Positions 13,811 through 59,493 are shown, counted from the stretch's first letter. The stretch: 64,000 bases of DNA from Oceanicaulis sp. (GCA_965284655.1 OZ260104.1:2283395-2347394); one strand, 5' to 3'. Notes: generated by a model from the sequence alone, not told the origin. Made by a program: numbers and translations.

Positions 13811-13892
13811 AGCGTTTTCCTCCCCTGGCCGGTCTATGCCAGCCTGATTATTGTGATCGAATCTTATGTCGGAGTTTTTTCACTGACAAGCG

Positions 13893-13906
13893 CGATAATA
13901 TTATCG
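13893..13906. promoter_or_regulatory. perfect 14-bp palindrome CGATAATATTATCG (Fur-hexamer-like) in the TBDR-A / TetR-A divergent region
   Basis: Read directly. It sits 83 nt upstream of the TBDR start in an AT-rich 250-bp intergenic region. GATAAT/ATTATC are the Fur-box hexamers. Confidence 0.35.
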
Positions 13907-13968
13907 TTCTGTAGAAGATATTGGATGAGCGGACATCAAGAATATGATTAAAAAGAGTTTTTTAATTC

Positions 13969-13980
13969 ACTCACACCGGA
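13969..13980. promoter_or_regulatory. 12-mer ACTCACACCGGA, copy 1 (candidate TetR-A operator)
   Basis: An identical 12-mer recurs at 14848..14859. This copy is 115 nt upstream of the TetR ATG. Confidence 0.35.
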
Positions 13981-14094
13981 TAGAAAAATTGTCTCGCCGT
14001 CTTATGTCACACAATCCTGGTTGTTTCCGCCGCGCACATCCGGCTATGACAACGGGAGGGCTTGGCGACAATCGACCGAAAGCAGGGATACACA

Positions 14095-14796
14095 ATGACC
14101 GGAGCAGAACATCGCAATCCCCGTCGCAAACGCCAAACCAAGGCTGAAGCGCGCGCCGAAACCACGCTCCAAATACTGGACGCCGCAGAATACCTGTTCT
14201 CACGCCACGGACTGCACGGCGTCACGCTGAAAGACGTCGCCAAACACGTCGGCGTGCACCACACGCTCCTGAACTACTATTTCGACGACAAGCAACAGCT
14301 GTTCGACCAGGTCTTCGCGCGACGTGCGGCGGTGACCAGCGAACGCCGGATGAAAATGCTGGATGCCTACGAACTGGAGGCAAAGGGACAGCCGACTGTG
14401 AAAGGTGCGCTTCGGGCGTTCCTCGACACCGACCTCGATCTCTATATCGAAGGTGGTGAAGGCTGGCGCAATTATGGCGCGCTCAGCGCTCAGGTGGCGA
14501 ACACTCCGCAATGGGGCGCGGATATGATGGACCAACATTTCGACCCGGTCGTTCTGCGTCTGATCGGTCTGTTGAAGAAGGCTCTGCCCCATGCGGCCGA
14601 GGAAGACATTTTTTGGGGGTACCATTTTGTCAGCGGCGCCTTGATGCTGACGCTCGCGCGCACCGGGCGCATCGACAAGCTGTCCAACGGATTGTGCAAT
14701 TCGGATGACTACGCGGCTGTCAAAGCGCGCATGACTCGCTTCATGGCCGCAGGCCTTGAAGAAATCTGCGGAGAGGGCGCGCAGGTCGCCGACTGA
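14095..14796 (+). CDS. TetR/AcrR-family transcriptional regulator (module A)
   Basis: HTH region LFSRHGLHGVTLKDVAKHVGVHHTLLNYYF. ATG at 14095 (the ORF track starts at a TTG at 14062). Paralogous to the TetR at 30001..30705. Confidence 0.85.
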   Translation: MTGAEHRNPRRKRQTKAEARAETTLQILDAAEYLFSRHGLHGVTLKDVAKHVGVHHTLLNYYFDDKQQLFDQVFARRAAVTSERRMKMLDAYELEAKGQPTVKGALRAFLDTDLDLYIEGGEGWRNYGALSAQVANTPQWGADMMDQHFDPVVLRLIGLLKKALPHAAEEDIFWGYHFVSGALMLTLARTGRIDKLSNGLCNSDDYAAVKARMTRFMAAGLEEICGEGAQVAD

Positions 14797-14847
14797 GGTC
14801 GAGCCCGTCCGGTTTCCGACTTGGACACAGGCTCGGTTTATGTATTA

Positions 14848-14863
14848 ACTCACACCGGAGTGA
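14848..14863. promoter_or_regulatory. 12-mer ACTCACACCGGA, copy 2, embedded in the near-palindrome TCACACCGGAGTGA
   Basis: Lies 52 nt after the TetR stop and about 120 nt upstream of the MHS transporter start. Six of seven half-site positions are symmetric around CCGG. Confidence 0.4.
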
Positions 14864-14981
14864 ATATTATTGATCTAAGTTTGAGCATGAGCGGACCGTC
14901 AGAGTCCGCCCTGCCAGACCCCCAGCCAGGCGCCGCCAGATAGCGCCATACAACGGGCCGGGGCACAGGGGAGGAAAGCTG

Positions 14982-16649
14982 ATGGCCGCCGATCGGGGCG
15001 CGGAGGACTCCGCGCATGCACTCAAAACTAGCGATACGAAAGTCATCGCGGCCGCCTCACTCGGCACCATGTTCGAGTGGTTCGATTTCTACCTTTATGG
15101 CCTGCTCGCGAGCTACATATCGGTCCAGTTCTTTTCGGGGGTCAACGAAACCACCGGCTTCATCCTTGCGCTGGCGGCTTTCGCAGCGGGTTTCGCGATC
15201 CGGCCGCTGGGCTCCATAGTCTTTGGCCGGATCGGCGACATTGTCGGCCGAAAATACACGTTTCTGGTGACGATGGGTCTGATGGGTCTGTCGACGTTCG
15301 CGGTCGGTTTCCTTCCGAGCTACGAGACGATCGGCATCGCCGCGCCCATCATCCTCGTCACGTTGCGGCTGATCCAGGGGCTCGCGGTCGGCGGCGAGTA
15401 CGGGGGAGCGGTGACCTATGTCGCCGAACACGCCCCCCAGGGCAAACGAGGCTTCTACACCAGCTTCATCCAGACCACGGCGACGATCGGGCTGTTTGTC
15501 GCGCTGCTGCTTGTCATAGGATTGCGCGCCCTGATCGGCGAGGACGCGTTCGCCGAATGGGGGTGGCGCATACCCTTCTTGTCTTCAATCCTGCTCTTGA
15601 CGATTTCGCTCTGGATCCGCTTCCAGCTCAGCGAAAGCCCGACCTTCAAGAAGATGAAGGCCGAGGGCAGAACTTCGAAAGCGCCCCTGGCCGAAGCATT
15701 CGGGCGCTGGTCGAACCTCAAATATGTATTGGTGGCCTTGCTGGGCGGCGTCGCGGGCCAGGCCGTCATTGGCTATACTGGCCAGTTCTACACCCTGTTC
15801 TTTCTGGAACGGATCGCCGATATCGACCCGGCGACCTCGAATATTCTCCTGGTGATCGCACTGATCATCGCCACACCCACCTTCGTGTTCTTCGGGTGGC
15901 TGAGCGACAAGATCGGCCGCAAGACCATCATCATGACCGCGTGCGTACTGGCGGTGTTCACCCTGTTCCCGCTGTTCAAGGTCTTAACCTGGGCGGCCAA
16001 CCCGGACATGGCGGATGCGGTTCGCAACGCCCCGGTCACCGTTGTTGCAGACCATGACGAGTGTTCGCTTCAGTTTGATCCGATCGGGCGTAACACGTTC
16101 GACGAATCCAGCTGCGACATCGCCAAGGCCTACCTTGCCCGCAACGGCATCAATTACGCGAACGCTGACGCTCCTGCAGGGACCATCGCCACGGTCCGGA
16201 TCGGGGATGTCATACTGTCAACGCCGGACCCCGCCGGTCTCAGCGCCGCAGAGCGCACAAGCGCCGTCGCAGAATTCCGCGCCGAGGTCGGCGATGCGCT
16301 TGTCGCCGCCGGCTATCCCAGCGAAGCCGACCCGGACAGCATTAACAGGCCGCTCGTCATCGCGGTCATCGTGGCCATCATGCTTATGGTCACGGCTGCC
16401 TATGCGCCGCTTGCGGCCATGCTCGTCGAGCTGTTCCCGGCGCGGATTCGCTACACTTCAATGTCGCTGCCCTATCACATCGGGAATGGCTGGTTCGGAG
16501 GTTTCCTGCCCACGGTCGCCTTCGCCATGGTCGCCGCCACGGGCAATATCTATTACGGCCTCTGGTATCCGGTGCTGATCGCGGGGATGACCGCTGTGGT
16601 CGGCATCCTCTTCCTGCCGGAGACCTTCAGGAGAAACATCGATGAGTGA
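14982..16649 (+). CDS. MFS transporter, metabolite:H+ symporter (MHS) family, with a ~115-aa insert
   Basis: MFEWFDFYLYG and GRIGDIVGRK motifs. An extra soluble segment (aa ~339-456, nt 15996..16349) sits between predicted TM9 and TM10. Confidence 0.85.
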   Translation: MAADRGAEDSAHALKTSDTKVIAAASLGTMFEWFDFYLYGLLASYISVQFFSGVNETTGFILALAAFAAGFAIRPLGSIVFGRIGDIVGRKYTFLVTMGLMGLSTFAVGFLPSYETIGIAAPIILVTLRLIQGLAVGGEYGGAVTYVAEHAPQGKRGFYTSFIQTTATIGLFVALLLVIGLRALIGEDAFAEWGWRIPFLSSILLLTISLWIRFQLSESPTFKKMKAEGRTSKAPLAEAFGRWSNLKYVLVALLGGVAGQAVIGYTGQFYTLFFLERIADIDPATSNILLVIALIIATPTFVFFGWLSDKIGRKTIIMTACVLAVFTLFPLFKVLTWAANPDMADAVRNAPVTVVADHDECSLQFDPIGRNTFDESSCDIAKAYLARNGINYANADAPAGTIATVRIGDVILSTPDPAGLSAAERTSAVAEFRAEVGDALVAAGYPSEADPDSINRPLVIAVIVAIMLMVTAAYAPLAAMLVELFPARIRYTSMSLPYHIGNGWFGGFLPTVAFAMVAATGNIYYGLWYPVLIAGMTAVVGILFLPETFRRNIDE

Positions 16650-49959: not shown

Positions 49960-49985
49960 TGATCCGATGCAACATTCAGGGCGTA
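49960..49985 (+). promoter_or_regulatory. ECF sigmaE(ChrR)-type promoter motif TGATCC-N16-CGTA
   Basis: TGATCC at 49960..49965, a 16-nt spacer, CGTA at 49982..49985. The ATG of the chrR-like gene follows 9 nt later. The same bipartite motif is at 59468..59493. Confidence 0.55.
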
Positions 49986-49994
49986 TAGCTTGAT

Positions 49995-50654
49995 ATGACA
50001 ACACAAAGCCACACCACGAGCCTTGATGAAGGCTGGATCCTTGACGCCGCGTCCGGCGCCGCGCCGCGCGCGGTCCGGGTGCTGGCGGCCTGCCATGGAG
50101 CGATGAACCCCGAGGCCGGCGTCTCGCTGGATGCAGCCGAGCGCACCTTCGGCGCCTTGCTGGAAACCTCGCCGAGCGCGCCAATGTCGCCCGGCGCCTA
50201 TGACGTCGTTCTTACCAGATTGGCGGACCCGGAAGCGCCCCTCGACGATCCGGCGCCGAAAAGCGCCTGGCTTCCCAAACCGCTGGTGCGCGCGCTGGCC
50301 CGCTCCGGCGCGCCCAACTGGCGCAAGCGCTTTGGCGGTTACAGCGAAATCATCGTATCCGATCTGTGCGAGCCGGGCGTGCGTGCGCGGCTTCTCTCCA
50401 TCCCGAAGGGGAAGGGCGCGCCCGAGCATGACCATGAAGGCGATGAGCTGACGCTGGTTCTCTCCGGTTCGTTCATCGACGGGCGCGGCCGCTACGGTCC
50501 GGGCGACGCGTGTGTGGCCGAGCCGGGTGTCGTGCATCGGCCCCGCGTCGACCTGGACGATCTGTGCGTCTGTTTCGCTGTTGAGCTGGGAGACTGGCGC
50601 CTGACCAATCCCGCGCTTTCGGCGCTGGATCGTATCTTTACCCGCAAACACTGA
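49995..50654 (+). CDS. ChrR-like cupin protein (anti-sigmaE family) lacking the zinc-binding CxxC
   Basis: The C-terminal cupin region EHDHEGDELTLVLSGSF...GVVHRP resembles ChrR. The N-terminus keeps H6 and H34, but NPEA replaces CxxC. Confidence 0.7.
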   Translation: MTTQSHTTSLDEGWILDAASGAAPRAVRVLAACHGAMNPEAGVSLDAAERTFGALLETSPSAPMSPGAYDVVLTRLADPEAPLDDPAPKSAWLPKPLVRALARSGAPNWRKRFGGYSEIIVSDLCEPGVRARLLSIPKGKGAPEHDHEGDELTLVLSGSFIDGRGRYGPGDACVAEPGVVHRPRVDLDDLCVCFAVELGDWRLTNPALSALDRIFTRKH

Positions 50655-50664
50655 GGTCTGTTTC

Positions 50665-51387
50665 ATGACCACGCTGATTTTCGGAGCGACCGGCGGCGTC
50701 GGCGCGGCTCTCGCGCGTCGCCTGTCCAAATTGGGCGAGGACGTCTTCCTCGCCGCACGCGACGAAGAGGCGCTGAAATCCATCGCTGACGAACTCGATG
50801 CGCCGAGCCGGGTTTGCGACGTGCTCGACAGCGCCGAGATCGAAGCCACGGTCGAGGCGGCCGCCGAACACGGCGCGTTGACTGGCCTGGCGTTTTGCGT
50901 CGGCTCGATCGATCTGGCGCCGCTGCGACGGACCGATCGCGACATGGTGCGCAAGACCTTCGAGTTGAACGCGGTGAGCGCGTCCGAGGCGCTGCGCTGC
51001 GCGGATCCGCACCTGCGCAAAAACAACGGGTCCGCCCTTCTCTTCTCCACGGTCGCCGTCGGTCAGGGCTTTGTCAGCCACGCCGCCATCTCGATGGCCA
51101 AGGGCGCGGTGGAGGGCCTGACGCGGGCCGTGGCGGCCGAGTGGGCGCCGAAGGCGCGGATCAATGCGATCGCGCCAAGCATTCTGGATACGGGCATCGC
51201 CCAGCCGCTCCTGTCGTCTGACAAGATGCGCGACGGCCTGGCGAAGATGCATGCTCTGGAAAGACTGGGCGAGGGGGATGACGCTGCTGCGCTCGCGGCT
51301 TTCTTGCTGTCGAAAGAGTCCGGCTGGATCACCGGCCAGGTTTTCCCCGTCGATGGCGGTCGTTCGCGCGTTAGAACCAAAGGATAA
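50665..51387 (+). CDS. SDR-family oxidoreductase (atypical; catalytic Tyr position appears substituted)
   Basis: Rossmann motif GATGGVGAA. The expected YxxxK position reads ISMAK. Confidence 0.75.
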   Translation: MTTLIFGATGGVGAALARRLSKLGEDVFLAARDEEALKSIADELDAPSRVCDVLDSAEIEATVEAAAEHGALTGLAFCVGSIDLAPLRRTDRDMVRKTFELNAVSASEALRCADPHLRKNNGSALLFSTVAVGQGFVSHAAISMAKGAVEGLTRAVAAEWAPKARINAIAPSILDTGIAQPLLSSDKMRDGLAKMHALERLGEGDDAAALAAFLLSKESGWITGQVFPVDGGRSRVRTKG

Positions 51388-51390
51388 TCA

Positions 51391-52086
51391 ATGTTTCGTA
51401 CCTTTATGATCGCCGCCACCCTCGGTTTCGCCGGGTCGCCAGCCATGGCGCAGGCCGCTGATCCCGATCCCCGGCCGCTGCCGCAGGCCGGCGAAGAGAT
51501 CGTCTTCGACGTCTACCGAAAGGGGGATGTCGATTTCGGCACACACACGGTTCGATTTTCTGAAGACGGCGGTGATCTGATCGCCACAACCACGATCCGG
51601 CTTCGCGCCGGGCTGGGGCCGATCACCGTGTTCCGCTATGAGCATGACGCCACCGAGCGCTGGCGCGATGATCAGCTGATCGCCCTGGATGGGCGCACGC
51701 TGAAGGACGGAAATACATTCGAGGTCACCGCCCGCTCCACCAGCGAGGGCCTGGAGGTGAATGGCGTCAATCCGGAAGGCGAGGGGATCAGCCAGCTTCT
51801 AAGCGCCGGAATTCTTCCCAGCTCTCACTGGCACGGCTATCCGGCCGATATGGCCGAGATGCTGAACACCGAGCACGGCACGGTGATGGACACCACCGTG
51901 GAATATCTCGGAGAGACCGAGATTGAAGGTGATGGCGGAATGATCGCGGTGGGACGCTACCGGCTTTCCAGCACGCTCACCGTGGATCTTTTCTACGACG
52001 AAAACGGCCGCTGGGCCGGGTGCGAGTTTGATGCGCGCGGCCAGACCGTTCGCTATGTGCGCCGCGCCGACCCTGTCACGGGCTAG
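51391..52086 (+). CDS. secreted protein of unknown function (DUF3108/DUF6134-like)
   Basis: Signal peptide MFRTFMIAATLGFAGSPAMAQA. Beta-rich sequence. The family name is recalled with low certainty. Confidence 0.5.
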   Translation: MFRTFMIAATLGFAGSPAMAQAADPDPRPLPQAGEEIVFDVYRKGDVDFGTHTVRFSEDGGDLIATTTIRLRAGLGPITVFRYEHDATERWRDDQLIALDGRTLKDGNTFEVTARSTSEGLEVNGVNPEGEGISQLLSAGILPSSHWHGYPADMAEMLNTEHGTVMDTTVEYLGETEIEGDGGMIAVGRYRLSSTLTVDLFYDENGRWAGCEFDARGQTVRYVRRADPVTG

Positions 52087-52089
52087 GCG

Positions 52090-53616
52090 ATGGCCACCCT
52101 CCGGCTGATCCTCGGCGACCAGCTCAGCCAGTCCATCGCGTCACTGCGCGACCTCGACGCCGCTGAGGACACCGTCCTCATGGCCGAGGTCGACGCGGAA
52201 GCGACTTACGTAAAGCACCACAAGAAGAAGATCGCCTATCTCTTTTCAGCTATGAGGCATTTCGCCGCCAACCTTCAGGCGAACCGGGTCAAGGTGCGCT
52301 ATAGCAGGATCGACGACGCGGACAATGCCGGCTCGCTTGAGGCCGAGATTGCGCGGGCGCTAGAGGATGAGCGCTATGACAAGCTGGTGGTGGTTGAGCC
52401 CGGCGAGCACCGGCTCAAAAAGACCATGGAGGGGTGGGAGCACCGACTCGGGATCAAGACCGAGATCCGGCGTGATGATCGCTTCATCTGCACGCTGGAT
52501 CGTTTCGATGCGTGGGCGAACGGACGTAAGCGGCTCACCATGGAATATTTCTACCGCGAGCTCCGGAAAGAGACCGGCATCCTGATGGACGGCAAGGAGC
52601 CGGCCGGCGGCCAGTGGAATTTCGACCACGACAATCGCCAGCGCCTGCCCAACGATATCGCCATCCCGCCGCGACTTCGCATCGAACCGGACGCCGTCAC
52701 GCGCGAGGTGCTGGACACGGTGGCGGAGAAATACGCCGACCATTTCGGCGACCTCGATGATTTCTGGTTCGCGGTGACGGCCGAGGACGCCGAAGCCCAG
52801 CTGGACTGGTTCATCGAGCAAGCGCTGTGTAATTTCGGCGATTATCAGGACGCCATGAAGGAGGGCGAGGCCTTCCTCTTTCACTCGGTCCTGTCGCTCT
52901 ACATGAACGCCGGTCTGCTGGACCCTCTCAAGGTCTGCAGGACGGCCGAAGCGGCCTATCGCCAGGGCGCCGCGCCGCTCAACGCGGTGGAGGGCTTCAT
53001 CCGCCAGATCCTGGGCTGGCGCGAATTTGTGCGCGGGATCTACTGGCGTTTCATGCCGGAATACCGCAAGCGCAATTTTCTCGAGGCCGAACGCAAGCTT
53101 CCGGAGTTTTACTGGACCGGCGAGACGAAGATGGCGTGCCTGCGCGACGCGGTGCTCACGACGAAGAAGCACGCCTACGCCCACCACATCCAGCGCCTCA
53201 TGATCACAGGCAATTTCGCCCTGATCGCGGGGCTCGATCCGGACGCGGTCAATGAGTGGTACATGGTGGTCTACGCCGACGCCTATGAATGGGTCGAGGC
53301 GCCCAACACCCACGGCATGGCGCTGTTCGCAGACGGCGGTCTCATGGCGACGAAACCCTATGCCGCGTCAGGTTCTTACATCAACAAGATGAGTGACCAC
53401 TGCAAGGGCTGCTCCTATGCGGTGAGCAAGAAGAACGGGCCAAAGGCCTGCCCGTTCAACTATCTCTACTGGGGCTTCCTGATGGAGAACGAAGAGCGCC
53501 TGCGCGGCAATCACCGCCTTGCGATGATCTACAAGACGCTGGAGCGTATGGACGACGAGAAGAGAGCCGCCATCCGCGCTGATTCCAGGCGCTTTTTCAA
53601 CGAACTCGGGATTTAG
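52090..53616 (+). CDS. cryptochrome/photolyase-family protein of the FeS-BCP class (bacterial (6-4) photolyase / CryB type)
   Basis: 508 aa 'photolyase-related' layout. Four-Cys pattern (MACLRD, HCKGC, KACPF) typical of the [4Fe-4S] subclass. Confidence 0.8.
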   Translation: MATLRLILGDQLSQSIASLRDLDAAEDTVLMAEVDAEATYVKHHKKKIAYLFSAMRHFAANLQANRVKVRYSRIDDADNAGSLEAEIARALEDERYDKLVVVEPGEHRLKKTMEGWEHRLGIKTEIRRDDRFICTLDRFDAWANGRKRLTMEYFYRELRKETGILMDGKEPAGGQWNFDHDNRQRLPNDIAIPPRLRIEPDAVTREVLDTVAEKYADHFGDLDDFWFAVTAEDAEAQLDWFIEQALCNFGDYQDAMKEGEAFLFHSVLSLYMNAGLLDPLKVCRTAEAAYRQGAAPLNAVEGFIRQILGWREFVRGIYWRFMPEYRKRNFLEAERKLPEFYWTGETKMACLRDAVLTTKKHAYAHHIQRLMITGNFALIAGLDPDAVNEWYMVVYADAYEWVEAPNTHGMALFADGGLMATKPYAASGSYINKMSDHCKGCSYAVSKKNGPKACPFNYLYWGFLMENEERLRGNHRLAMIYKTLERMDDEKRAAIRADSRRFFNELGI

Positions 53617-53625
53617 GAGACGCCC

Positions 53626-54414
53626 ATGCCCCGCCCCGCCACACCCAAGGACGGACTGTGCTGGATCACCGGCGCCAGTTCCGGCATCGGCAAGGAGCTG
53701 ACGCGAAAGCTGGTTAAAGAGGGCTGGCGGGTAGCGGTGTCAGCGCGCAGCGAGGACAAGCTGAATGCGCTTGTGGCCGAAGCCCCGGACAAGATCATCG
53801 CCGTCCCGCTGGATATCACAGACGCGCCGGCGGTGGCCGCCGCCGTGGACCGCATCGAGGCCGAACACGGACCCATTGCGCGCGCCGTGCTGAACGCCGG
53901 CGTGTATATCCCCATCAACGGCGAAGCGCCGCGTTATGAGGATTACGCCAAGACCTTCTCCGTGAACCTCAACGGCACCGCGGCGTGCGTCAGCGCGATC
54001 ACGCCAAAATTTGTGGAGCGCCGTGCCGGTCAGCTTGTGATCGTCTCTTCGGCCACGGCCTTTGGCGGGATGCCCACCGCGTCGGCCTATGGCGCGACCA
54101 AGGCGGCGCTGTTGAACATGGCCGAATGCCTCTCGATCGAGCTTCACCGGTTCGGCGTGCATGTTCAGTGCGTGACGCCTGGGTTCGTGGAGACCCCGGC
54201 CCAGGACGATAACGAATTTCCAAAGCCCTTCATGGTGAGCGCAAAAAAGGCCGCCGGGCGCATGGCGTCCGGCATGAAGTCAAAGCGGTTTGAAGTGACT
54301 TTCCCGCGCCGTTTCACCTGGAGTTTGAAGGTTCTCTACGCCCTGCCGCGCGGCTGGTATTTGCCGCTGGTGCGGAAGCAGACCGGCTGGGACAAGGACG
54401 CAGACGTAAGCTGA
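53626..54414 (+). CDS. classical SDR-family oxidoreductase
   Basis: TGASSGIG, SSATAF and YGATK motifs. Confidence 0.85.
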   Translation: MPRPATPKDGLCWITGASSGIGKELTRKLVKEGWRVAVSARSEDKLNALVAEAPDKIIAVPLDITDAPAVAAAVDRIEAEHGPIARAVLNAGVYIPINGEAPRYEDYAKTFSVNLNGTAACVSAITPKFVERRAGQLVIVSSATAFGGMPTASAYGATKAALLNMAECLSIELHRFGVHVQCVTPGFVETPAQDDNEFPKPFMVSAKKAAGRMASGMKSKRFEVTFPRRFTWSLKVLYALPRGWYLPLVRKQTGWDKDADVS

Positions 54415-54487
54415 CGCCGGAAGCGCGAAGGCGAACCGAGGAACGCGGCACATCAAGAGCGCATCAGGGGGTTCAGGCCATTGGTCG

Positions 54488-55738
54488 TCAGACCGGGCGC
54501 TTTACGGCGAATTGCGCCACATCGATGCGTCCGGTGTCGAACCCGGCTTCGCAATAGGCCAGGTAAAACTCCCACATCCTCTTAAAGCGGTCGTCGAAGC
54601 CCATGGGCGCGATTTCGCCCCAGGCGTCGCGGAAGCTGTGGAGCCAGCGATTGAGCGTGCGCGCATAGTCCTCGCCGAAGGCTTCCATGCCCTCGAAGGC
54701 GAGGCCTGCCTGATCGAATTGAGCGCGCAGCTTTTCAGCACTGGGAAGCACGCCGCCAGGGAAGATGTAGCGCTGAATGAAGTCGGTGCGCTTGGCGTAG
54801 GTGTCGAACAGATCGTCTCGGATGGTGATGATCTGCATCCCCGCCTTGCCGCCGGGTTTGAGCACGTCGTGCATCTTGGAGAAGAAGCTGGGCCAGTATT
54901 CCTGGCCGACCGCCTCGAACATCTCGATGGACGCGACCGCGTCATAGGCGCCGGTCTCGTCGCGATAGTCCTGCAGTTTGATGTCCACCTTCTCGCCCAG
55001 CTGGTTCTGCTGGATGCGCTCCAGAGCGAAATCGCGCTGGCTGGGTGACAGGGTGAGGCAGGTCACCTTCGCGCCGACGACCCCGGCGGCGTATTGGGCG
55101 AATCCGCCCCAGCCGCAGCCGATCTCCAGCGCGTGGCTGCCCGGCTTCAGGTCGATCATGCGAGCCAGCGCGGCGTATTTTTCCTGCTGCGCCGCCTCCA
55201 GGCTCTGCGTCTCGCTTTTGAATCGCGCAGAGGAATAGGTCATCGAAGGGTCTAGCCACAGCTCGTAAAAATCATTGCCGAGATCGTAGTGCGCCTCGAT
55301 ATTCTTGCGCGCCTGGGACTTCGTGTTTGCGTTCAGCTTGTGGAAAATCCAGTGGAAGAAGCGCGTCAGCGGCCCGCCGGTGATGATGGAGTGCATCTCG
55401 TCCAGATTGGCCGAGAACACTGAAAGCGCCGCCGGCAGGTCCGGCGTCGTCCAGTCGCCGTCCATATAGCTTTCCCCGAACCCGACATCGCCGCCGGAGA
55501 AGACCTTGCGCACAATCTTGTAATTGTTGAGCTCGATGCGCGCCTCCTGCCCGGGTTTCTCGCCCTCGAAGACGATGTCTCGGCCGTCGGGCAGGCGCAC
55601 CGTCAGGCTGCCGACTTTCAGGCGCAAAAGCATGCGAAGCGCGAAGCGTACATTGCTGGGAACGTCACGCAGCCGATCGATCAAGGATCCATCGGCGCGC
55701 AGGGTCTCCGCAGAGGAGAACGAGTCGGCGTTGCTCAT
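54488..55738 (-). CDS. cyclopropane-fatty-acyl-phospholipid synthase-family SAM methyltransferase (UfaM/Cfa-like)
   Basis: 416 aa. SAM motif LEIGCGWGG and CFA-synthase family C-terminus. Confidence 0.85.
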   Translation of the reverse strand: MSNADSFSSAETLRADGSLIDRLRDVPSNVRFALRMLLRLKVGSLTVRLPDGRDIVFEGEKPGQEARIELNNYKIVRKVFSGGDVGFGESYMDGDWTTPDLPAALSVFSANLDEMHSIITGGPLTRFFHWIFHKLNANTKSQARKNIEAHYDLGNDFYELWLDPSMTYSSARFKSETQSLEAAQQEKYAALARMIDLKPGSHALEIGCGWGGFAQYAAGVVGAKVTCLTLSPSQRDFALERIQQNQLGEKVDIKLQDYRDETGAYDAVASIEMFEAVGQEYWPSFFSKMHDVLKPGGKAGMQIITIRDDLFDTYAKRTDFIQRYIFPGGVLPSAEKLRAQFDQAGLAFEGMEAFGEDYARTLNRWLHSFRDAWGEIAPMGFDDRFKRMWEFYLAYCEAGFDTGRIDVAQFAVKRPV

Positions 55739-55780
55739 GGGTCGGCTCCGTACGGGCGGTCCTGAGGAAATTACGATACC

Positions 55781-56593
55781 CTAATCGAGCCGGTCGCCAA
55801 GCGTAGCGGAGCGGTGATCGACCGAATGGCCGCGGGTGGCCGCGGCGGGCGGTTGCGGGCGAGGGTGGTATTTCGCCCCTTTTATCCAGAGCTTGAGCGC
55901 CTCGAAATGGATCGCGGCGATGGTCTTCAGCGTCGAAAAAGGCTGGCTTGCGAACAAGCCGGCGAGATTGGCGGTGGTGAGGGCGCGCCTTTTCATCGCC
56001 ATCGTGGCGAGCAGATCAGGACCGGCCTCACGCTGCTTCAGGATAATCAGGCGAAAGATTTTTCCCGGCTCACGCACAGTGAATTCATAGCGCCCGGCCA
56101 CGTCGAAAAAGGGCGAGACGTGGAAAACCTTCTCGGCGTCCTGGAGCTCCCGGCGTCCGCCCGTGGCCGCCGCCACATAGGCGTGGGCGTCACCGAACGT
56201 GTTGTGGACCTGGTAGATCACTCCGGCGAGCCGGCCGTCTGCCCCTTCGGCGAAATAAACCGACAACGGGTTGAAGACATAGCCGAGGACCCGCGGCGAG
56301 CAGAGCAGACGGACCGGCCCGTCGCCCGTATCCACGCCGGCCTCTTCAAACCGCGCGCGCGCCCAGGCCTTCAGGTCGGATCCGTCGCGCGCGCCGTGAT
56401 CCTTGCTCTTGAAGCTGAACAGGTTGAATCGCTCCACCGAAAACAGCGGGCTGACACGGTCGGCCTCCTCCAACCGATCGAGATCGATCAGCAAGGATGC
56501 GATGCGATAGGTGAACCGGTGGAAGAAGGGCGCCCGGCGCTCGTGCACCGTATGACCGGCGTATAGCCAGGCGGGGGCGTCGGCTGTGATCAT
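55781..56593 (-). CDS. DUF1365-family protein
   Basis: ATG at 56593 (ATGA overlap with the upstream gene). LYAGHTVHERRAPFFHRFTYRIASLLIDLD matches the DUF1365 N-terminus as recalled. Confidence 0.7.
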   Translation of the reverse strand: MITADAPAWLYAGHTVHERRAPFFHRFTYRIASLLIDLDRLEEADRVSPLFSVERFNLFSFKSKDHGARDGSDLKAWARARFEEAGVDTGDGPVRLLCSPRVLGYVFNPLSVYFAEGADGRLAGVIYQVHNTFGDAHAYVAAATGGRRELQDAEKVFHVSPFFDVAGRYEFTVREPGKIFRLIILKQREAGPDLLATMAMKRRALTTANLAGLFASQPFSTLKTIAAIHFEALKLWIKGAKYHPRPQPPAAATRGHSVDHRSATLGDRLD

Positions 56594-57969
56594 TCCGCGG
56601 CCGGATTCGCCGCTACGCTGCGCACCGCCTCCCGTTCCACAATGTCGCGCTCGCCCCAAGCCCCGCCGGTGACGTCGCCGTCAGCAAAGGTCCACGGGAT
56701 CTCCCCGCCCAGGCGCAGCGCCGCGCGCAAGCCCGCGCGCAGTCCGTCTTCATGGAAGCCGTATCCAAGCCAAGCGCCGGCGAACCAGGTGCGCCGCACG
56801 CCCTGGACCCGGTTGAAGATGCGCTGCGCGGCCATGCCGGGCGCCGTGAATTGCGGGTGGTCGTACTGGAACCGGCCGAAGGTGAGGTCGGGATCGGGCT
56901 GGCGAACCGGATTGAGCGTTACGAAAAGCGGTTTGTCTGAAGGGATATGCTGCAGGCGGTTCATGTCATAGGTGACCGCAGCGTCGGGCGATCCAGCCTC
57001 ACGCAGATAGCACCAGGCCGCCTGCGCACGGGTCCGGCGCGGGCAGAGCGTGGGATCGCGGTGCAGCACCGCCTCATTGGGCGCGTAGGGGATCGCGGCG
57101 AGCATGTCGCGCTCGTCCGGATCGGCGTCCTGCAGGATTTTCAGCGCCTGGTCGGAGTGGCAGGCCAGGATCACCTCGTCAAAATGATGGATGTCTCCGG
57201 CCGCGTCGGTGATGATTACGCCGCCGTCCACACGGCGCACGGCCGTCGCGCCGCCTTCAAACCGGGCCCCGGCCGCTTCCAGATCGGCCGTCATCTTGCG
57301 CACATAGCTACGGCTGCCACCCTTCACGGTGCCCCATTTGGGGCGTTGGGCGTGCATCAGGCGATGATTGTTGAAGAACCGCACGAAAGCCTCGGCCGGG
57401 TAGGCCTGCATTTCTTCCTCGGTCGAGGACCAGATCGCCGCTCCCATGGGCAGAAGATAATTGTGCCGGAAGCGCGGCCCGAGCTTCAGCCGGTCGAGAT
57501 ATTGGCCCAGGTCCAGGCCCGAGAGGCCGCCGGAGCTCAAATCCGCCTGGGCGCGTGCATTAAAGCGGAGGATGTCGCGCAGCATCTTCAGAAAGTCCGG
57601 CCGCACGAGATTGCCCGGGTCGGAGAACAGGCCGCCGAGCCCGTTGGACGACCATTCCAGCTGGCCGTCCAGCGAGAAGCCGAAACTCATGTCGCTTTCA
57701 TAGGTCGCGACGTCCAGATGCTCGAACAGGGCCGTTAGATTGGGATAGTTCAGCGTGTTGAACACGATGAAGCCGGTGTCCACGTCGATGGTCTCGCCAT
57801 CATAGTCGACGCTGACAGTGTTGGCGTGTCCGCCCAGCCGGTCACGTTTTTCAAACACAGTCACGTCATGCTTGGTGCGAAGCGCCCAGGCGGCGCCGAG
57901 CCCGGCCACCCCGGCGCCGATGACGGCGATGCGGGAGCGCTTGGAAAGAATGGGCTCGGTGGTGCTCAT
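56590..57969 (-). CDS. NAD(P)/FAD-dependent oxidoreductase (amine-oxidase / desaturase-like)
   Basis: Dinucleotide fold IAVIGAGVAGLGAAWAL. 459 aa. ATGA overlap with phrB. Confidence 0.8.
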   Translation of the reverse strand: MSTTEPILSKRSRIAVIGAGVAGLGAAWALRTKHDVTVFEKRDRLGGHANTVSVDYDGETIDVDTGFIVFNTLNYPNLTALFEHLDVATYESDMSFGFSLDGQLEWSSNGLGGLFSDPGNLVRPDFLKMLRDILRFNARAQADLSSGGLSGLDLGQYLDRLKLGPRFRHNYLLPMGAAIWSSTEEEMQAYPAEAFVRFFNNHRLMHAQRPKWGTVKGGSRSYVRKMTADLEAAGARFEGGATAVRRVDGGVIITDAAGDIHHFDEVILACHSDQALKILQDADPDERDMLAAIPYAPNEAVLHRDPTLCPRRTRAQAAWCYLREAGSPDAAVTYDMNRLQHIPSDKPLFVTLNPVRQPDPDLTFGRFQYDHPQFTAPGMAAQRIFNRVQGVRRTWFAGAWLGYGFHEDGLRAGLRAALRLGGEIPWTFADGDVTGGAWGERDIVEREAVRSVAANPAAE

Positions 57970-59408
57970 GCGGCGTCCTTGATCTTTTCAAATGCGGCGA
58001 GCGCGGCTTTTCGCGCCTCGCCATGGTCGACGATGGGTTCGGGATAGTCCTGACCCAGGACCACCCCGGCTTTTGCAAGCGTGTCACGATCCGCCGTCCA
58101 CGGAGCGTGGATGAATCGCTTCGGCAATTTAGCAAGCTCTGGAATCCAGGTACGCACGTAATCGCCCTGCGGATCGAATTTTTCACCCTGGCTGACAGGG
58201 TTGAAGATTCGAAAGTACGGCGCCGCGTCCGCGCCAGAGCCGGCGGTCCACTGCCAGCCGGCCGCGTTGCTGGCCAGATCGGCGTCCACCAGCGTATCCC
58301 AGAACCAGTCTTCGCCGCGGCGCCAGTGCACCATCAGATCCTTGATAAGGAAGCTGGCCGTGATCATCCGCACCCGGTTGTGCATCCAGCCGATCGCGTA
58401 GAGCTGACGCATTCCTGCGTCCACGATCGGGTAGCCGGTAAGGCCTCTGGTCCACGCTGTGTAGGCCTCGTCCGAGCCGGTCCATTCAAACTTGTCGAAC
58501 TTCGCCTGGAAGTTTTTCTCGGGGAAGTGCGGGAAGTGATACAGCAGATTATAGCTGAATTCCCGCCAGCCGATCTCGGAAAGGAAGCTGTCCGCGCCTT
58601 TCGTGGCGCTGTTTTCGGCGTCCTTCACCGCATGCCAGACCTGGCGCGGAGAAATCTCGCCATGGTGCAGATGGGCGGATAATCCCGACGTGCCTTTTGT
58701 GGAGGGAATGTCGCGGGCCTGGTCATAGCCGTCCATACGCGACTTGATGAAGGCGCCGAGCCGCCCCTGAGCTGCGGATTCCCCCGGCGTCCACGTGTCG
58801 CGCAGGCCGCCGGCCCAGTCGGGCTTGCTTGGGAGCAGGTTCCAGTCCTCAAGCGTGTCCGAGCCCGGCGGATCAGCGAACGCCATGGAGTCGGGCCGGC
58901 CGGCCGGCGCGTTGGGCGCATGATCGGCTTTCAGAGACCGCCAGAACGGGGTGAAGACCTTGTAAGGGTTGCCTTGCTTGGTCGCGATGTCCCATGGCTC
59001 CACGATCAGCGAGCCATTGAAGGACCGCGCTGTGACGCCCTTGTCCTTCAGCCCGGACTTGATCGCCTCATCACGCTTGATCGACGAGGGTTCGTAGAGG
59101 CGGTTCCAGAAAACCGCGCCTGCGCCGGTCTCCCCGACAAGGGCGTTGATCTCGCGCCCGGCGTCGCCGCGGCGCAGGACCAGCGTGCCGCCAATGGCGT
59201 CCAGATCCTGCGCCAGGCTTTTCAGCGAGTGATGCAGCCACCATTTTGACGCGCCGCCTGGCGCCCAGTCGCCGGCGGTCTGCTCATCCAGAATATAGAC
59301 GCACACAAGCTTAGAGCCGCCGCTGGCCGCGGCGAGCAGAGCTGGGTTGTCGGAGAGCCGCAAATCCTTGCGGAACCAGACCAGGACGGGTGTATCGTCA
59401 GACGTCAT
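57966..59408 (-). CDS. phrB: class I CPD deoxyribodipyrimidine photolyase
   Basis: ATG at 59408. VLVWFRKDLRLSDNPAL and the C-terminal DADLASNAAGWQWTAGSGADAAPYFRIFNP signature. Confidence 0.9.
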   Translation of the reverse strand: MTSDDTPVLVWFRKDLRLSDNPALLAAASGGSKLVCVYILDEQTAGDWAPGGASKWWLHHSLKSLAQDLDAIGGTLVLRRGDAGREINALVGETGAGAVFWNRLYEPSSIKRDEAIKSGLKDKGVTARSFNGSLIVEPWDIATKQGNPYKVFTPFWRSLKADHAPNAPAGRPDSMAFADPPGSDTLEDWNLLPSKPDWAGGLRDTWTPGESAAQGRLGAFIKSRMDGYDQARDIPSTKGTSGLSAHLHHGEISPRQVWHAVKDAENSATKGADSFLSEIGWREFSYNLLYHFPHFPEKNFQAKFDKFEWTGSDEAYTAWTRGLTGYPIVDAGMRQLYAIGWMHNRVRMITASFLIKDLMVHWRRGEDWFWDTLVDADLASNAAGWQWTAGSGADAAPYFRIFNPVSQGEKFDPQGDYVRTWIPELAKLPKRFIHAPWTADRDTLAKAGVVLGQDYPEPIVDHGEARKAALAAFEKIKDAA

Positions 59409-59467
59409 GAAACCTTGCAAACGATGCGCTGCCGCGAAGGGTGACGCAAGGACGTGTTTCGTCGTAA

Positions 59468-59493
59468 TACGTTGTCGGTAAACGGGCGGATCA
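59468..59493 (-). promoter_or_regulatory. ECF sigmaE(ChrR)-type promoter motif TGATCC-N16-CGTA
   Basis: On the minus strand: TGATCC (59493..59488), a 16-nt spacer, CGTA (59471..59468), about 60 nt upstream of the phrB ATG. Confidence 0.55.

What the first reader, a model, noticed from the sequence alone, without database searches (positions are those of the whole stretch)
49960..59493. Two convergent operons each carry an exact TGATCC-N16-CGTA (ChrR/sigmaE-type ECF) promoter motif, but no sigma factor gene is present
The same bipartite motif with identical 16-nt spacing occurs in two places:
- before the chrR-like gene (49960..49985, plus strand);
- before phrB (59493..59468, minus strand).

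TGATCC/CGTA is, as far as I recall, the promoter signature of the RpoE-ChrR (ECF11) group. That group controls the singlet-oxygen response in Rhodobacter sphaeroides and Caulobacter. The genes driven here are the classic members of that regulon: photolyases, a CFA-synthase-like gene, DUF1365, an FAD oxidoreductase and SDRs.

Three things are unusual:
- The operon is headed by a chrR-like gene with no adjacent rpoE.
- The ChrR-like protein keeps H6 and H34 but has N38 and A41 where the zinc-binding Cys-x-x-Cys should be.
- The -10 element lies only 9 nt before the ATG, implying a leaderless or nearly leaderless mRNA.
Basis: partly seen in the sequence, partly recalled or inferred. Interest (0 to 1): 0.65.

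Follow-up and report, generated by a model that had tools for sequence, protein, structure and literature searches.

The report
Sigma-E stress island with extra ChrR paralog
The two promoter motifs are real, conserved sigma-E (ECF11) promoters driving a light and oxidative damage repair island; the "missing" sigma factor sits elsewhere on the same chromosome with its own anti-sigma factor, and the gene here is a second, sigma-E-induced copy of that anti-sigma factor.

Summary
**Observation: confirmed.**
- TGATCC-N16-CGTA occurs exactly twice in 64 kb (0.04 expected).
- Each copy heads one of two convergent operons.
- Both hexamers are invariant before the chrR-like gene in 29 Maricaulaceae genomes, while the spacer varies.

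**Interpretation: partly right.**
- No ECF sigma gene lies in the window or within about 10 kb of the island in 30 relatives.
- The genome does encode an ECF11 sigma (P0204). Its best solved relative is R. sphaeroides RpoE.
- P0204 and the window's own ChrR-like protein both sit on an NCBI contig of 3,305,054 bp.
- In six relatives, this rpoE is followed by a second ChrR homolog, which I call ChrR1. ChrR1 passes the curated ChrR cut-off.

**The window gene is a family-wide paralog, which I call ChrR2.**
- It has the ChrR two-domain fold.
- Its anti-sigma domain is as conserved as its cupin domain.
- It has no zinc site in the anti-sigma domain.

**Zinc-site loss is not special to it.** ChrR1 and the sigma-adjacent ChrRs of Caulobacteraceae lack the site too.

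**Unexpected.** Maricaulaceae rpoE lacks the autoregulatory motif (0 of 6 genomes) that 46 of 47 other ECF11 loci carry. Sigma-E-dependent feedback appears to have moved to ChrR2.

**Limits.** Binding of ChrR2 to sigma-E, the transcription starts and induction are all untested.

**Verdict.** A new variant of a known system, of moderate interest.

The parts
49960..49985 (+). Sigma-E (ECF11)-type promoter P_chrR2: TGATCC-N16-CGTA, with the -10 region reading CGTATA
   Evidence: Exact match. Both hexamers and the 16-nt spacing are invariant upstream of the ortholog in L001-L029, while the spacer sequence varies. No sigma-70-like promoter was found in the island.
49995..50654 (+). chrR2: sigma-unlinked paralog of the anti-sigma factor ChrR (219 aa). 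N-terminal anti-sigma domain without a zinc site, plus a C-terminal cupin domain with H145/H147/E151/H181 and C191/C193 intact. Probably translated from a leaderless mRNA.
   Evidence: Full-length match to ChrR 2Q1Z/2Z2S, E 1e-17. TIGR02451 95.8 bits, below the 124.5 cut-off. Alignments A1 and A2. AF2 pLDDT 81.9. Foldseek top hits are ChrR over 190-195 columns. Start codon is forced by the in-frame TAG at 49986.
50665..51387 (+). Short-chain dehydrogenase (SDR1). Present only in some relatives.
   Evidence: Pfam adh_short_C2, E 2e-46. Synteny.
51391..52086 (+). DUF6134 protein whose N-terminus reads like a signal peptide. Always follows chrR2 in the family.
   Evidence: Pfam DUF6134, E 1e-45. 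Sequence. Synteny in L001-L030 and L033.
52090..53616 (+). Photolyase-related protein of the DPRP (PF04244) family
   Evidence: Pfam DPRP, E 5e-84. A DPRP+SDR pair is an RpoE2 target in Shewanella (PMC4336711).
53626..54414 (+). Short-chain dehydrogenase (SDR2), last gene of the plus operon
   Evidence: Pfam adh_short, E 3e-44.
54488..55738 (-). Cyclopropane-fatty-acid-synthase family methyltransferase (UfaM/RSP1089-like), last gene of the minus operon
   Evidence: Pfam CMAS, E 4e-83. NCBIfam PRK11705, 274 bits.
55781..56659 (-). DUF1365 protein (UfaO-like, furan fatty acid synthesis). The exact start codon is uncertain.
   Evidence: Pfam DUF1365, E 3e-75. UfaO = RSP1090 carries DUF1365 (PMC7380195).
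56590..57969 (-). FAD amine-oxidase family oxidoreductase. It occupies the operon position that ufaD (RSP1091) holds beside ufaO in R. sphaeroides.
   Evidence: Pfam Amino_oxidase and NAD_binding_8. Gene order of the RSP1091-1087 operon (PMC7380195). Homology to UfaD itself was not tested.
57966..59408 (-). CPD photolyase (phr), first gene of the minus operon
   Evidence: Pfam DNA_photolyase and FAD_binding_7. NCBIfam PRK10674, 396 bits.
59468..59493 (-). Sigma-E (ECF11)-type promoter P_phr: TGATCC-N16-CGTA, 59 nt before the phr ATG
   Evidence: Exact match. Conserved before phr in 18 of the L001-L030 loci, but absent in the subclade L005/L007/L009/L010/L019.
58151..58176 (-). Near-consensus site CGATCC-N16-CGTA inside the 3' part of phr, 181 nt before the amine-oxidase gene. 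Possible internal promoter.
   Evidence: One-mismatch hit. Same position in 9 Oceanicaulis-clade loci as well as the window (10 of 25 sequences checked). It lies in coding sequence, so the conservation may come from the protein.

Best explanation
**Promoters (shown to be conserved; function inferred).** The two motifs are working promoters for an ECF11 sigma factor (sigma-E). They switch on a conserved repair island in response to photo-oxidative stress. The island holds two photolyase-family proteins, furan or cyclopropane fatty-acid enzymes, SDRs and DUF6134.

**Where the sigma is.** It is not missing. It is encoded elsewhere on the same chromosome. In relatives it lies about 1.3 Mb away, as rpoE followed by an orthodox ChrR (ChrR1).

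**What the window gene is.** It is a second, Maricaulaceae-wide paralog (ChrR2). It keeps the four-helix anti-sigma domain and the metal-binding cupin sensor domain.

**Rewired feedback.** In this family rpoE lacks the sigma-E promoter that autoregulates it in nearly all other lineages, while chrR2 carries one.

**Proposed mechanism**
1. Stress inactivates ChrR1.
2. Free sigma-E transcribes both operons.
3. ChrR2 is the first product, translated from a leaderless mRNA in the Oceanicaulis clade.
4. ChrR2 accumulates and re-sequesters sigma-E. This gives negative feedback without positive autoregulation.

**Shown**
- the motifs and their conservation
- the gene content
- the sigma elsewhere in the genome
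- the existence of two paralogs
- the fold of ChrR2
- the missing rpoE motif

**Inferred**
- promoter activity and the inducing signal
- ChrR2 binding to sigma-E
- the feedback role
For: **Promoters**
- 2 exact sites against 0.04 expected.
- Invariant hexamers with variable spacers in 29 genomes.
- The published ECF11 consensus is identical (PMC5507510; PMC4336711).
- No sigma-70-like promoter in the island.

**Regulon content**
- Pfam and NCBIfam assignments.
- UfaO = DUF1365.

**Sigma elsewhere**
- Contigs of runs X1 and X3 match rpoE regions 2 and 4.2, at the same depth as the window (about 240x and about 4x).
- The peptides deduced from those contigs retrieve P0204 exactly.
- P0204 and the window's own ChrR2 (P0336) are both on a 3,305,054-bp NCBI contig.
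- The best PDB hit of P0204 is R. sphaeroides RpoE, 145 bits against 77 for the next.

**rpoE-ChrR1 loci**
- Six genomes show the arrangement.
- The two ChrR1 sequences scanned pass TIGR02451, at 134 and 144 bits.

**ChrR2 looks functional as an anti-sigma domain protein**
- Foldseek top hits are ChrR across both domains.
- Mean pairwise identity is 60.5% in the anti-sigma domain, 59.5% in the cupin domain and 27.7% in the linker.
- Sigma-adjacent ChrRs of Caulobacterales also lack the zinc site.
- RseA folds the same domain without zinc (PMC6852236).

**Rewiring**
- The motif lies upstream of rpoE in 46 of 47 other loci.
- It is absent from 6 of 6 Maricaulaceae genomes (7 loci).
Against: - No transcription data exist. 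Only assembled contigs of unclear library type were found, so transcription starts and induction are untested.
- ChrR2 scores below the curated ChrR cut-off (95.8 against 124.5).
- It is the fastest-evolving gene of the island: 34-76% identity, against 60-90% for most of its neighbours (DUF6134 and DUF1365 fall to about 40-50% in the most distant genera).
- In R. sphaeroides the anti-sigma-domain zinc is needed to inhibit sigma-E (PMC6852236).
- No interaction evidence of any kind is available.
- 'No autoregulation' rests on absence of the motif at <=1 mismatch in six genomes of four genera or lineages. A degenerate TGATnn-N16 element does sit upstream of rpoE.
- Hyphobacterium and Maricaulis rpoE loci were not seen.
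Confidence: 0.55

Rival explanations
1. ChrR2 no longer binds any sigma factor. It is a regulon member that uses its cupin metal site and helical domain for another job tied to the neighbouring DUF6134, photolyase or lipid genes, such as sensing or handling an oxidised lipid or metal. The promoters and regulon are as in the best explanation.
For: - Below the TIGR02451 cut-off.
- All four anti-sigma-domain zinc ligands are lost or not conserved.
- A separate, orthodox ChrR1 already sits next to rpoE.
- chrR2 is always linked to DUF6134, even in the non-Maricaulaceae locus L033.
- It evolves fastest of the island genes.
Against: - The anti-sigma domain is as conserved as the cupin domain, while the linker is free to vary.
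- This fold is, to my knowledge, described only as a sigma-binding module.
- The predicted structure superposes on sigma-bound ChrR over both domains.
- Zinc-less ChrRs sit next to rpoE in Caulobacterales.
Confidence: 0.27
2. ChrR2 acts positively. By competing with sigma-E for ChrR1, or for the machinery that removes ChrR, it would prolong or amplify the response, replacing the lost positive autoregulation of rpoE.
For: - rpoE lacks its autoregulatory promoter, so some other positive loop might be expected.
- ChrR2 is sigma-E-induced.
Against: - No precedent is known to me for ChrR-ChrR interaction.
- The conserved anti-sigma-domain surface argues for a sigma partner.
- Nothing here tests it.
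Confidence: 0.08
3. ChrR2 is the anti-sigma factor of a different, unlinked ECF sigma, so that sigma-E activity cross-inhibits another regulon.
For: - ChrR2 forms a clade separate from both ChrR1 and the zinc-binding ChrRs.
- No sigma lies nearby.
Against: - No candidate partner was identified.
- The closest structural and sequence relatives are all sigma-E partners.
Confidence: 0.07
4. The motif matches are chance and do not act as promoters.
For: No transcript data.
Against: - 0 of 100 shuffles give two hits.
- Both hexamers and the spacing are invariant across 29 genomes with divergent spacers.
- Both sites sit in the right place before orthologs of known regulon genes.
Confidence: 0.02

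Closest known systems
Rhodobacter sphaeroides sigma-E/ChrR (ECF11) singlet-oxygen response
   Same: - The same promoter consensus.
- The same core targets: photolyase, DUF1365/UfaO, a CFA-synthase-like gene and SDRs.
- A sigma of the same group (P0204 against 2Q1Z_A, E 2e-41).
- ChrR homologs with the same two-domain fold and the same cupin ligands H-H-E-H.
   Different: - rpoE is not preceded by the sigma-E promoter.
- There are two ChrR paralogs, one beside rpoE and one unlinked and sigma-E-driven.
- Neither paralog has the complete HHCC zinc site of the anti-sigma domain.
Caulobacter crescentus SigE-ChrR system (NCBIfam NF051881, cadmium/peroxide/UV-responsive ChrR)
   Same: - The same order, Caulobacterales.
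- ChrR1 and ChrR2 both hit this model (132-137 and 85 bits).
- Sigma-adjacent ChrRs of Caulobacteraceae MAGs also lack H31/C35/C38.
   Different: - All scores are far below the 300-bit equivalog cut-off.
- The Caulobacteraceae loci seen here keep a one-mismatch motif upstream of rpoE.
- Those loci show no unlinked paralog heading a photolyase operon.
- I did not examine the C. crescentus sequence itself.
Gammaproteobacterial RpoE2/PSPTO_1043-ChrR regulons (Shewanella oneidensis, Pseudomonas syringae)
   Same: TGATCC-N16-CGTA lies before phrB-cfa clusters and before a DPRP photolyase-related gene plus SDR (PMC4336711, PMC5507510).
   Different: - There the sigma and chrR form one autoregulated operon.
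- No ChrR paralog is reported among the targets.
Azospirillum brasilense RpoE1-ChrR1 and RpoE2-ChrR2
   Same: Two ChrR paralogs in one alphaproteobacterial genome.
   Different: From my own knowledge and the papers listed, each Azospirillum ChrR is paired with its own adjacent sigma. Here there is one detected sigma and two ChrRs, the second being unlinked.

Membership tests
ECF11 (RpoE-ChrR type) sigma-dependent promoter | -35 TGATCC, 16-nt spacer, -10 CGTA | tested here: met
   Exact at both sites. Consensus as published (PMC5507510; PMC4336711).
ECF11 (RpoE-ChrR type) sigma-dependent promoter | Evolutionary conservation of the elements in front of orthologous genes | tested here: met
   Invariant before chrR2 in L001-L029. 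Present before phr in 18 loci.
ECF11 (RpoE-ChrR type) sigma-dependent promoter | A cognate ECF11 sigma encoded in the same genome | tested here: met
   P0204 is on the same 3,305,054-bp contig as the window's ChrR2. Read depth matches in X1 and X3. Best PDB hit is RpoE 2Q1Z_A.
ECF11 (RpoE-ChrR type) sigma-dependent promoter | Transcription start just downstream, with sigma-E- and stress-dependent induction | not testable with these tools
   No usable RNA runs.
ChrR family anti-sigma-E factor (TIGR02451) | Score above the curated family cut-off | tested here: not met
   ChrR2 scores 95.8 bits against 124.5. The two ChrR1 sequences scanned score 134 and 144 bits and pass.
ChrR family anti-sigma-E factor (TIGR02451) | N-terminal four-helix anti-sigma domain plus C-terminal cupin-like domain | tested here: met
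   AF2 model shows helices 12-20, 25-37, 39-58 and 68-77 plus a cupin. Foldseek top six hits are ChrR chains over 190-195 columns, target TM-score 0.69-0.79.
ChrR family anti-sigma-E factor (TIGR02451) | Cupin-domain metal ligands (ChrR H141, H143, E147, H177) and C187/C189 | tested here: met
   H145, H147, E151, H181, C191 and C193 are invariant in A1 and A2.
ChrR family anti-sigma-E factor (TIGR02451) | Gene adjacent to, and co-regulated with, rpoE | tested here: not met
   No ECF sigma in the window, or within about 10 kb in 30 relatives. rpoE is about 1.3 Mb away in CP121338.1.
ChrR family anti-sigma-E factor (TIGR02451) | Binds and inhibits sigma-E | not testable with these tools
   Needs two-hybrid, pull-down or in vitro transcription assays.
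Zinc-binding anti-sigma factors (ZAS, H-x3-C-x2-C) | HHCC ligands in the anti-sigma domain (ChrR H6, H31, C35, C38) | tested here: not met
   The window has S9, H34, N38 and A41 at these positions. H34 is Q or A in most relatives.
Core sigma-E/ChrR regulon (photolyase plus furan fatty-acid genes) | Photolyase, FAD oxidoreductase, DUF1365 (UfaO-type) and CFA-synthase-type methylase downstream of a sigma-E promoter | tested here: met
   Pfam. UfaO/UfaD definitions (PMC7380195). Review (PMC6852236). The enzymatic products were not tested.

The most novel reading that the evidence does not exclude
In Maricaulaceae the ECF11 circuit has been split. rpoE and its partner ChrR1 are expressed from housekeeping-type promoters without positive autoregulation. 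A zinc-less paralog, ChrR2, is the sole sigma-E-induced regulator and acts as a dedicated, stress-induced feedback anti-sigma factor. This would be a natural case of negative feedback uncoupled from sigma amplification in an ECF system.
Probability: 0.4. Interest if true: 0.6.

Novelty: new variant of a known kind. Interest (0 to 1): 0.45.

Why it matters
- ECF sigma/anti-sigma pairs are usually taught, and computationally predicted, as adjacent, autoregulated gene pairs.
- Here a whole bacterial family keeps the promoter code and the regulon but rearranges the wiring:
  - the sigma gene has lost its own promoter motif;
  - a duplicated anti-sigma gene has taken it over.
- If ChrR2 binds sigma-E, this gives a natural system to ask what positive autoregulation contributes to stress responses.
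- It would also show that the ChrR anti-sigma domain can work without its zinc. That bears on the open question of how singlet oxygen is sensed: through the anti-sigma-domain zinc or through the cupin domain.
- For annotation, 'cupin domain-containing protein' at the head of photolyase operons in these genomes should be read as a ChrR paralog.
- 'No sigma nearby' should not be read as 'no sigma'.

Tried and rejected
1. **Profile search for the sigma.** The search with five ECF11 sigmas was swamped: 8000 hits, and the top 120 included none from Maricaulaceae. It was solved by laying run contigs on a Caulobacteraceae rpoE at 80% likeness, deducing two peptides, and using them joined by an X-linker as bait.
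2. **Dufour et al. 2008 (PMC2579311).** The paper is not held.
3. **The look-up of encoding contigs for P0204.** Not on record. I used close relatives instead.
4. **Read laying on L082.** The aim was to show rpoE-chrR1 adjacency in the window's own organism. Adjacency there is inferred from six relatives, one of which has a sigma 95% identical to P0204.
5. **RNA evidence.** Only two runs of unclear kind exist, kept as contigs. The unitig spanning the promoter has the same depth as the genes, so it looks like DNA. No transcription start test was possible.
6. **AlphaFold model of a sigma-E-linker-ChrR2 fusion.** Considered and not run, for three reasons:
   - The solved sigma-E/ChrR complex would bias the model towards binding by homology.
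   - The output gives no interface measure.
7. **Sigma-70-type promoter scan of the island.** 0 hits.
8. **One-mismatch motif hits elsewhere in the window** (38423, 46305, 61723). These are at chance level: 6 found against 2.9 expected. Their position relative to genes was not checked, and I did not pursue them.

Full report
**1.
- TGATCC-N16-CGTA occurs at 49960-49985 (+) and 59493-59468 (-).
- These are the only exact matches in 64 kb. Shuffles give 0.04 on average, and none of 100 reach two.
- Each site faces into one of two convergent, tightly packed gene strings.
  - Plus strand:
    - a ChrR-like protein (49995-50654)
    - an SDR
    - DUF6134
    - a DPRP-family photolyase-related protein
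    - a second SDR
  - Minus strand:
    - a CPD photolyase (59408-57966)
    - an FAD amine-oxidase-family protein
    - DUF1365
    - a CFA-synthase-family methyltransferase
- The island is inserted between housekeeping genes: hisHAF-hisIE and a PALP enzyme on one side, a DAHP_synth_1-family (KdsA-like) enzyme and a PfkB/cytidylyltransferase (HldE-like) protein on the other.
- No sigma-70-like promoter is found in the island.

**2. The motif is the known ECF11 promoter and is under selection.**
- PMC5507510 gives TGATCCn16CGTA as the consensus for the RpoE/ChrR-type sigma of P. syringae, including its phrB operon.
- PMC4336711 lists RpoE2 sites of the same form in Shewanella. They lie before a phrB-cfa cluster and before a DPRP photolyase-related gene plus SDR.
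- I scanned one genome per species for relatives of the ChrR-like protein. This gave 30 Maricaulaceae loci from Oceanicaulis, Alkalicaulis, Glycocaulis, Hyphobacterium and Maricaulis.
- In all 29 loci that include the gene's upstream region, both hexamers and the 16-nt spacing are invariant while the spacer differs freely.
- The island is syntenic throughout the family:
  - the PALP enzyme gene
  - P> chrR-like, (SDR), DUF6134, DPRP, SDR
  - converging on cfa, DUF1365, oxidase, phr <P
  - the KdsA-like gene
- DUF1365 is the UfaO family of furan-fatty-acid synthesis. UfaD and UfaO belong to the RSP1091-1087 sigma-E operon of R. sphaeroides (PMC7380195; PMC6852236).

**3. No sigma in the window, but one in the genome.**
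- Neither tblastn with six ECF sigmas nor an unfiltered profile search of all six-frame ORFs finds an ECF sigma. This holds for the window and for the 20-kb loci of the 30 relatives.
- The same profile finds the sigma directly upstream of chrR in the non-Maricaulaceae loci.
- A first profile search of the protein database was swamped.
- I then laid the contigs of runs that hold the window (X1, X3) on a Caulobacteraceae rpoE at 80% likeness.
  - Short contigs matched regions 2 and 4.2 with the right spacing.
  - Their depth was 251 and 234 in X1 and 4.1 in X3. The window itself is at about 160-370 and about 4 in those runs.
- The flanking letters gave two peptides.
- Used as bait, they retrieved a clade of 193-196-aa ECF sigmas named from Oceanicaulis, Alkalicaulis, Glycocaulis and Maricaulaceae.
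- P0204 matches both peptides exactly.
- An exact look-up shows that P0204 and the window's own ChrR-like protein (P0336) each lie on an NCBI contig of 3,305,054 bp.
- The best solved relative of P0204 is R. sphaeroides RpoE (2Q1Z_A, 145 bits). The next is SigK at 77 bits.

**4. The sigma has its own ChrR.**
- Six genomes show the same layout: two complete Oceanicaulis MAG chromosomes, an ENA contig, Alkalicaulis satelles, Glycocaulis abyssi and Maricaulaceae MS644. The MS644 sigma is 95% identical to P0204.
- The layout is an IalB-like gene (divergent), rpoE, a 98-146-nt gap, a 227-234-aa Cupin_7 protein, and in five of the six an FAD_binding_3 gene.
- That protein, ChrR1, passes the curated ChrR cut-off in both sequences scanned: 134 and 144 bits against 124.5.
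- The window protein, ChrR2, scores 95.8 and does not pass.
- In CP121338.1 rpoE lies at 1.74 Mb and the island at about 0.39 Mb.

**5. What ChrR2 is.**
- It aligns with ChrR 2Q1Z/2Z2S over residues 15-196.
- The AlphaFold model (pLDDT 81.9) has four N-terminal helices and a cupin.
- The six best Foldseek matches are ChrR chains over 190-195 columns. All later matches are cupin-only.
- The cupin ligands and the two C-terminal cysteines are invariant.
- The anti-sigma-domain zinc ligands are gone.
  - ChrR H6 aligns with S9, so the window's H6 is a coincidence.
  - H31 aligns with H34, which is Q or A in most relatives.
  - C35 aligns with N38 and C38 with A41.
- This loss is not peculiar to ChrR2.
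  - ChrR1 has Q, D/N/S and I/V at the H31, C35 and C38 positions.
  - Four sigma-adjacent ChrRs of Caulobacteraceae MAGs have T/A-R-A.
  - All 42 other sigma-linked ChrRs have H-C-C.
- In a neighbour-joining tree ChrR2 is a clade of its own, ChrR1 groups with the Caulobacteraceae proteins, and the zinc-binding ChrRs form a third group.
- Within ChrR2, mean pairwise identity is 60.5% in the anti-sigma domain, 59.5% in the cupin domain and 27.7% in the linker. The sigma-binding module is therefore under selection.
- The review PMC6852236 notes that RseA adopts the same fold without zinc.

**6. Rewired feedback.**
- Upstream of rpoE, 46 of 47 non-Maricaulaceae loci have the motif at <=1 mismatch, and 34 have it exactly with a 16-nt spacer.
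- None of the 7 Maricaulaceae rpoE loci (6 genomes) has it within 300 nt, in the rpoE-chrR1 gap, or, as an exact match, anywhere in the 8-16 kb loci.
- Conserved TTGAT...TGTGA and CTTGAA...ATATCC blocks precede rpoE and chrR1 instead. They look like housekeeping-type promoters. That is inference only.
- The only ChrR gene under a sigma-E promoter in this family is therefore chrR2.
- I therefore propose that ChrR2 provides stress-induced negative feedback on sigma-E, in a circuit that has lost positive autoregulation.
- Binding, induction and phenotype are untested, so this part stands at roughly even odds.

**7. Leaderless start.**
- An in-frame TAG at 49986 and the conserved N-terminus force the ATG at 49995, which is 9 nt after CGTA.
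- Twelve loci keep a 9-10-nt gap to an ATG. About fourteen others have a 28-35-nt leader, several with a Shine-Dalgarno-like sequence.
- Leaderless mRNAs are common in Caulobacter: 375, or 9.6% of CDSs (PMC4117421). The feature is real but ordinary for this order.

**8. Verdict.**
- The 'missing sigma' is explained.
- The loss of the zinc motif is lineage-wide.
- What remains of interest is the second, unlinked, sigma-E-driven ChrR paralog together with the loss of rpoE autoregulation across a bacterial family.
- This is a new variant of a known system.

Noticed in passing
L081-L087 (rpoE loci of Maricaulaceae), e.g. L087:3803-4000 and L087:4583-4728: rpoE lacks the TGATCC-N16-CGTA motif. Conserved blocks GGTTGAT(n)...CTGTGA lie upstream of rpoE, and CTTGAA-N~17-(C)ATATCC lies in the rpoE-chrR1 gap. 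These look like separate housekeeping-type promoters for the two genes.
   Followed up: partly
window 58151-58176 (-); same position in L002, L003, L005, L007, L009, L010, L013, L017, L019: CGATCC-N16-CGTA lies inside the 3' end of phr, exactly 181 nt before the amine-oxidase gene. It is also present in the subclade that has lost the promoter upstream of phr. It could be an internal sigma-E promoter for the lipid genes, or merely a by-product of conserved photolyase codons.
   Followed up: partly
L005, L007, L009, L010, L019 upstream of phr: This Oceanicaulis subclade has no sigma-E motif before phr, even allowing 2 mismatches. It shares another conserved stretch there instead (GCGACTATTTCA...CGCGTCATACGCGATCA), which suggests a change of regulator for the photolyase.
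   Followed up: no
L031, L034, L038 and 19 further canonical rpoE-chrR loci (22 of 47): An exact TGATCC-N16-CGTA lies inside the 3' part of rpoE, roughly 115-125 nt before chrR where measured (L031, L034). It is encoded by a conserved ...LILSFVEDV... stretch. It may be an internal sigma-E promoter for chrR in Hyphomicrobiales-type lineages, or a coding coincidence.
   Followed up: partly
L033 (Caulobacterales MAG, contig JBMOIB010000103.1) 8498-9134 and downstream: Outside Maricaulaceae, another sigma-unlinked ChrR-like gene (H-R-A at the H31, C35 and C38 positions) is preceded by the exact motif and followed by DUF6134 and an SDR. The chrR-like/DUF6134 pairing is therefore not restricted to one family.
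   Followed up: no
window 51391-52086: DUF6134 has an N-terminus (MFRTFMIAATLGFAGSPAMAQA) that reads like a signal peptide. It may be an exported protein of unknown function that always travels with chrR2.
   Followed up: no
window 12001-16000: GC content drops to 0.58-0.60, against about 0.64-0.66 elsewhere in the window. This may be acquired DNA.
   Followed up: no
runs X1, X2, X4: Near-identical sequence turns up in an algae metagenome and in runs labelled with other organisms. This suggests the bacterium lives with algae or protists, a light-exposed niche that would fit a photo-oxidative stress island.
   Followed up: no
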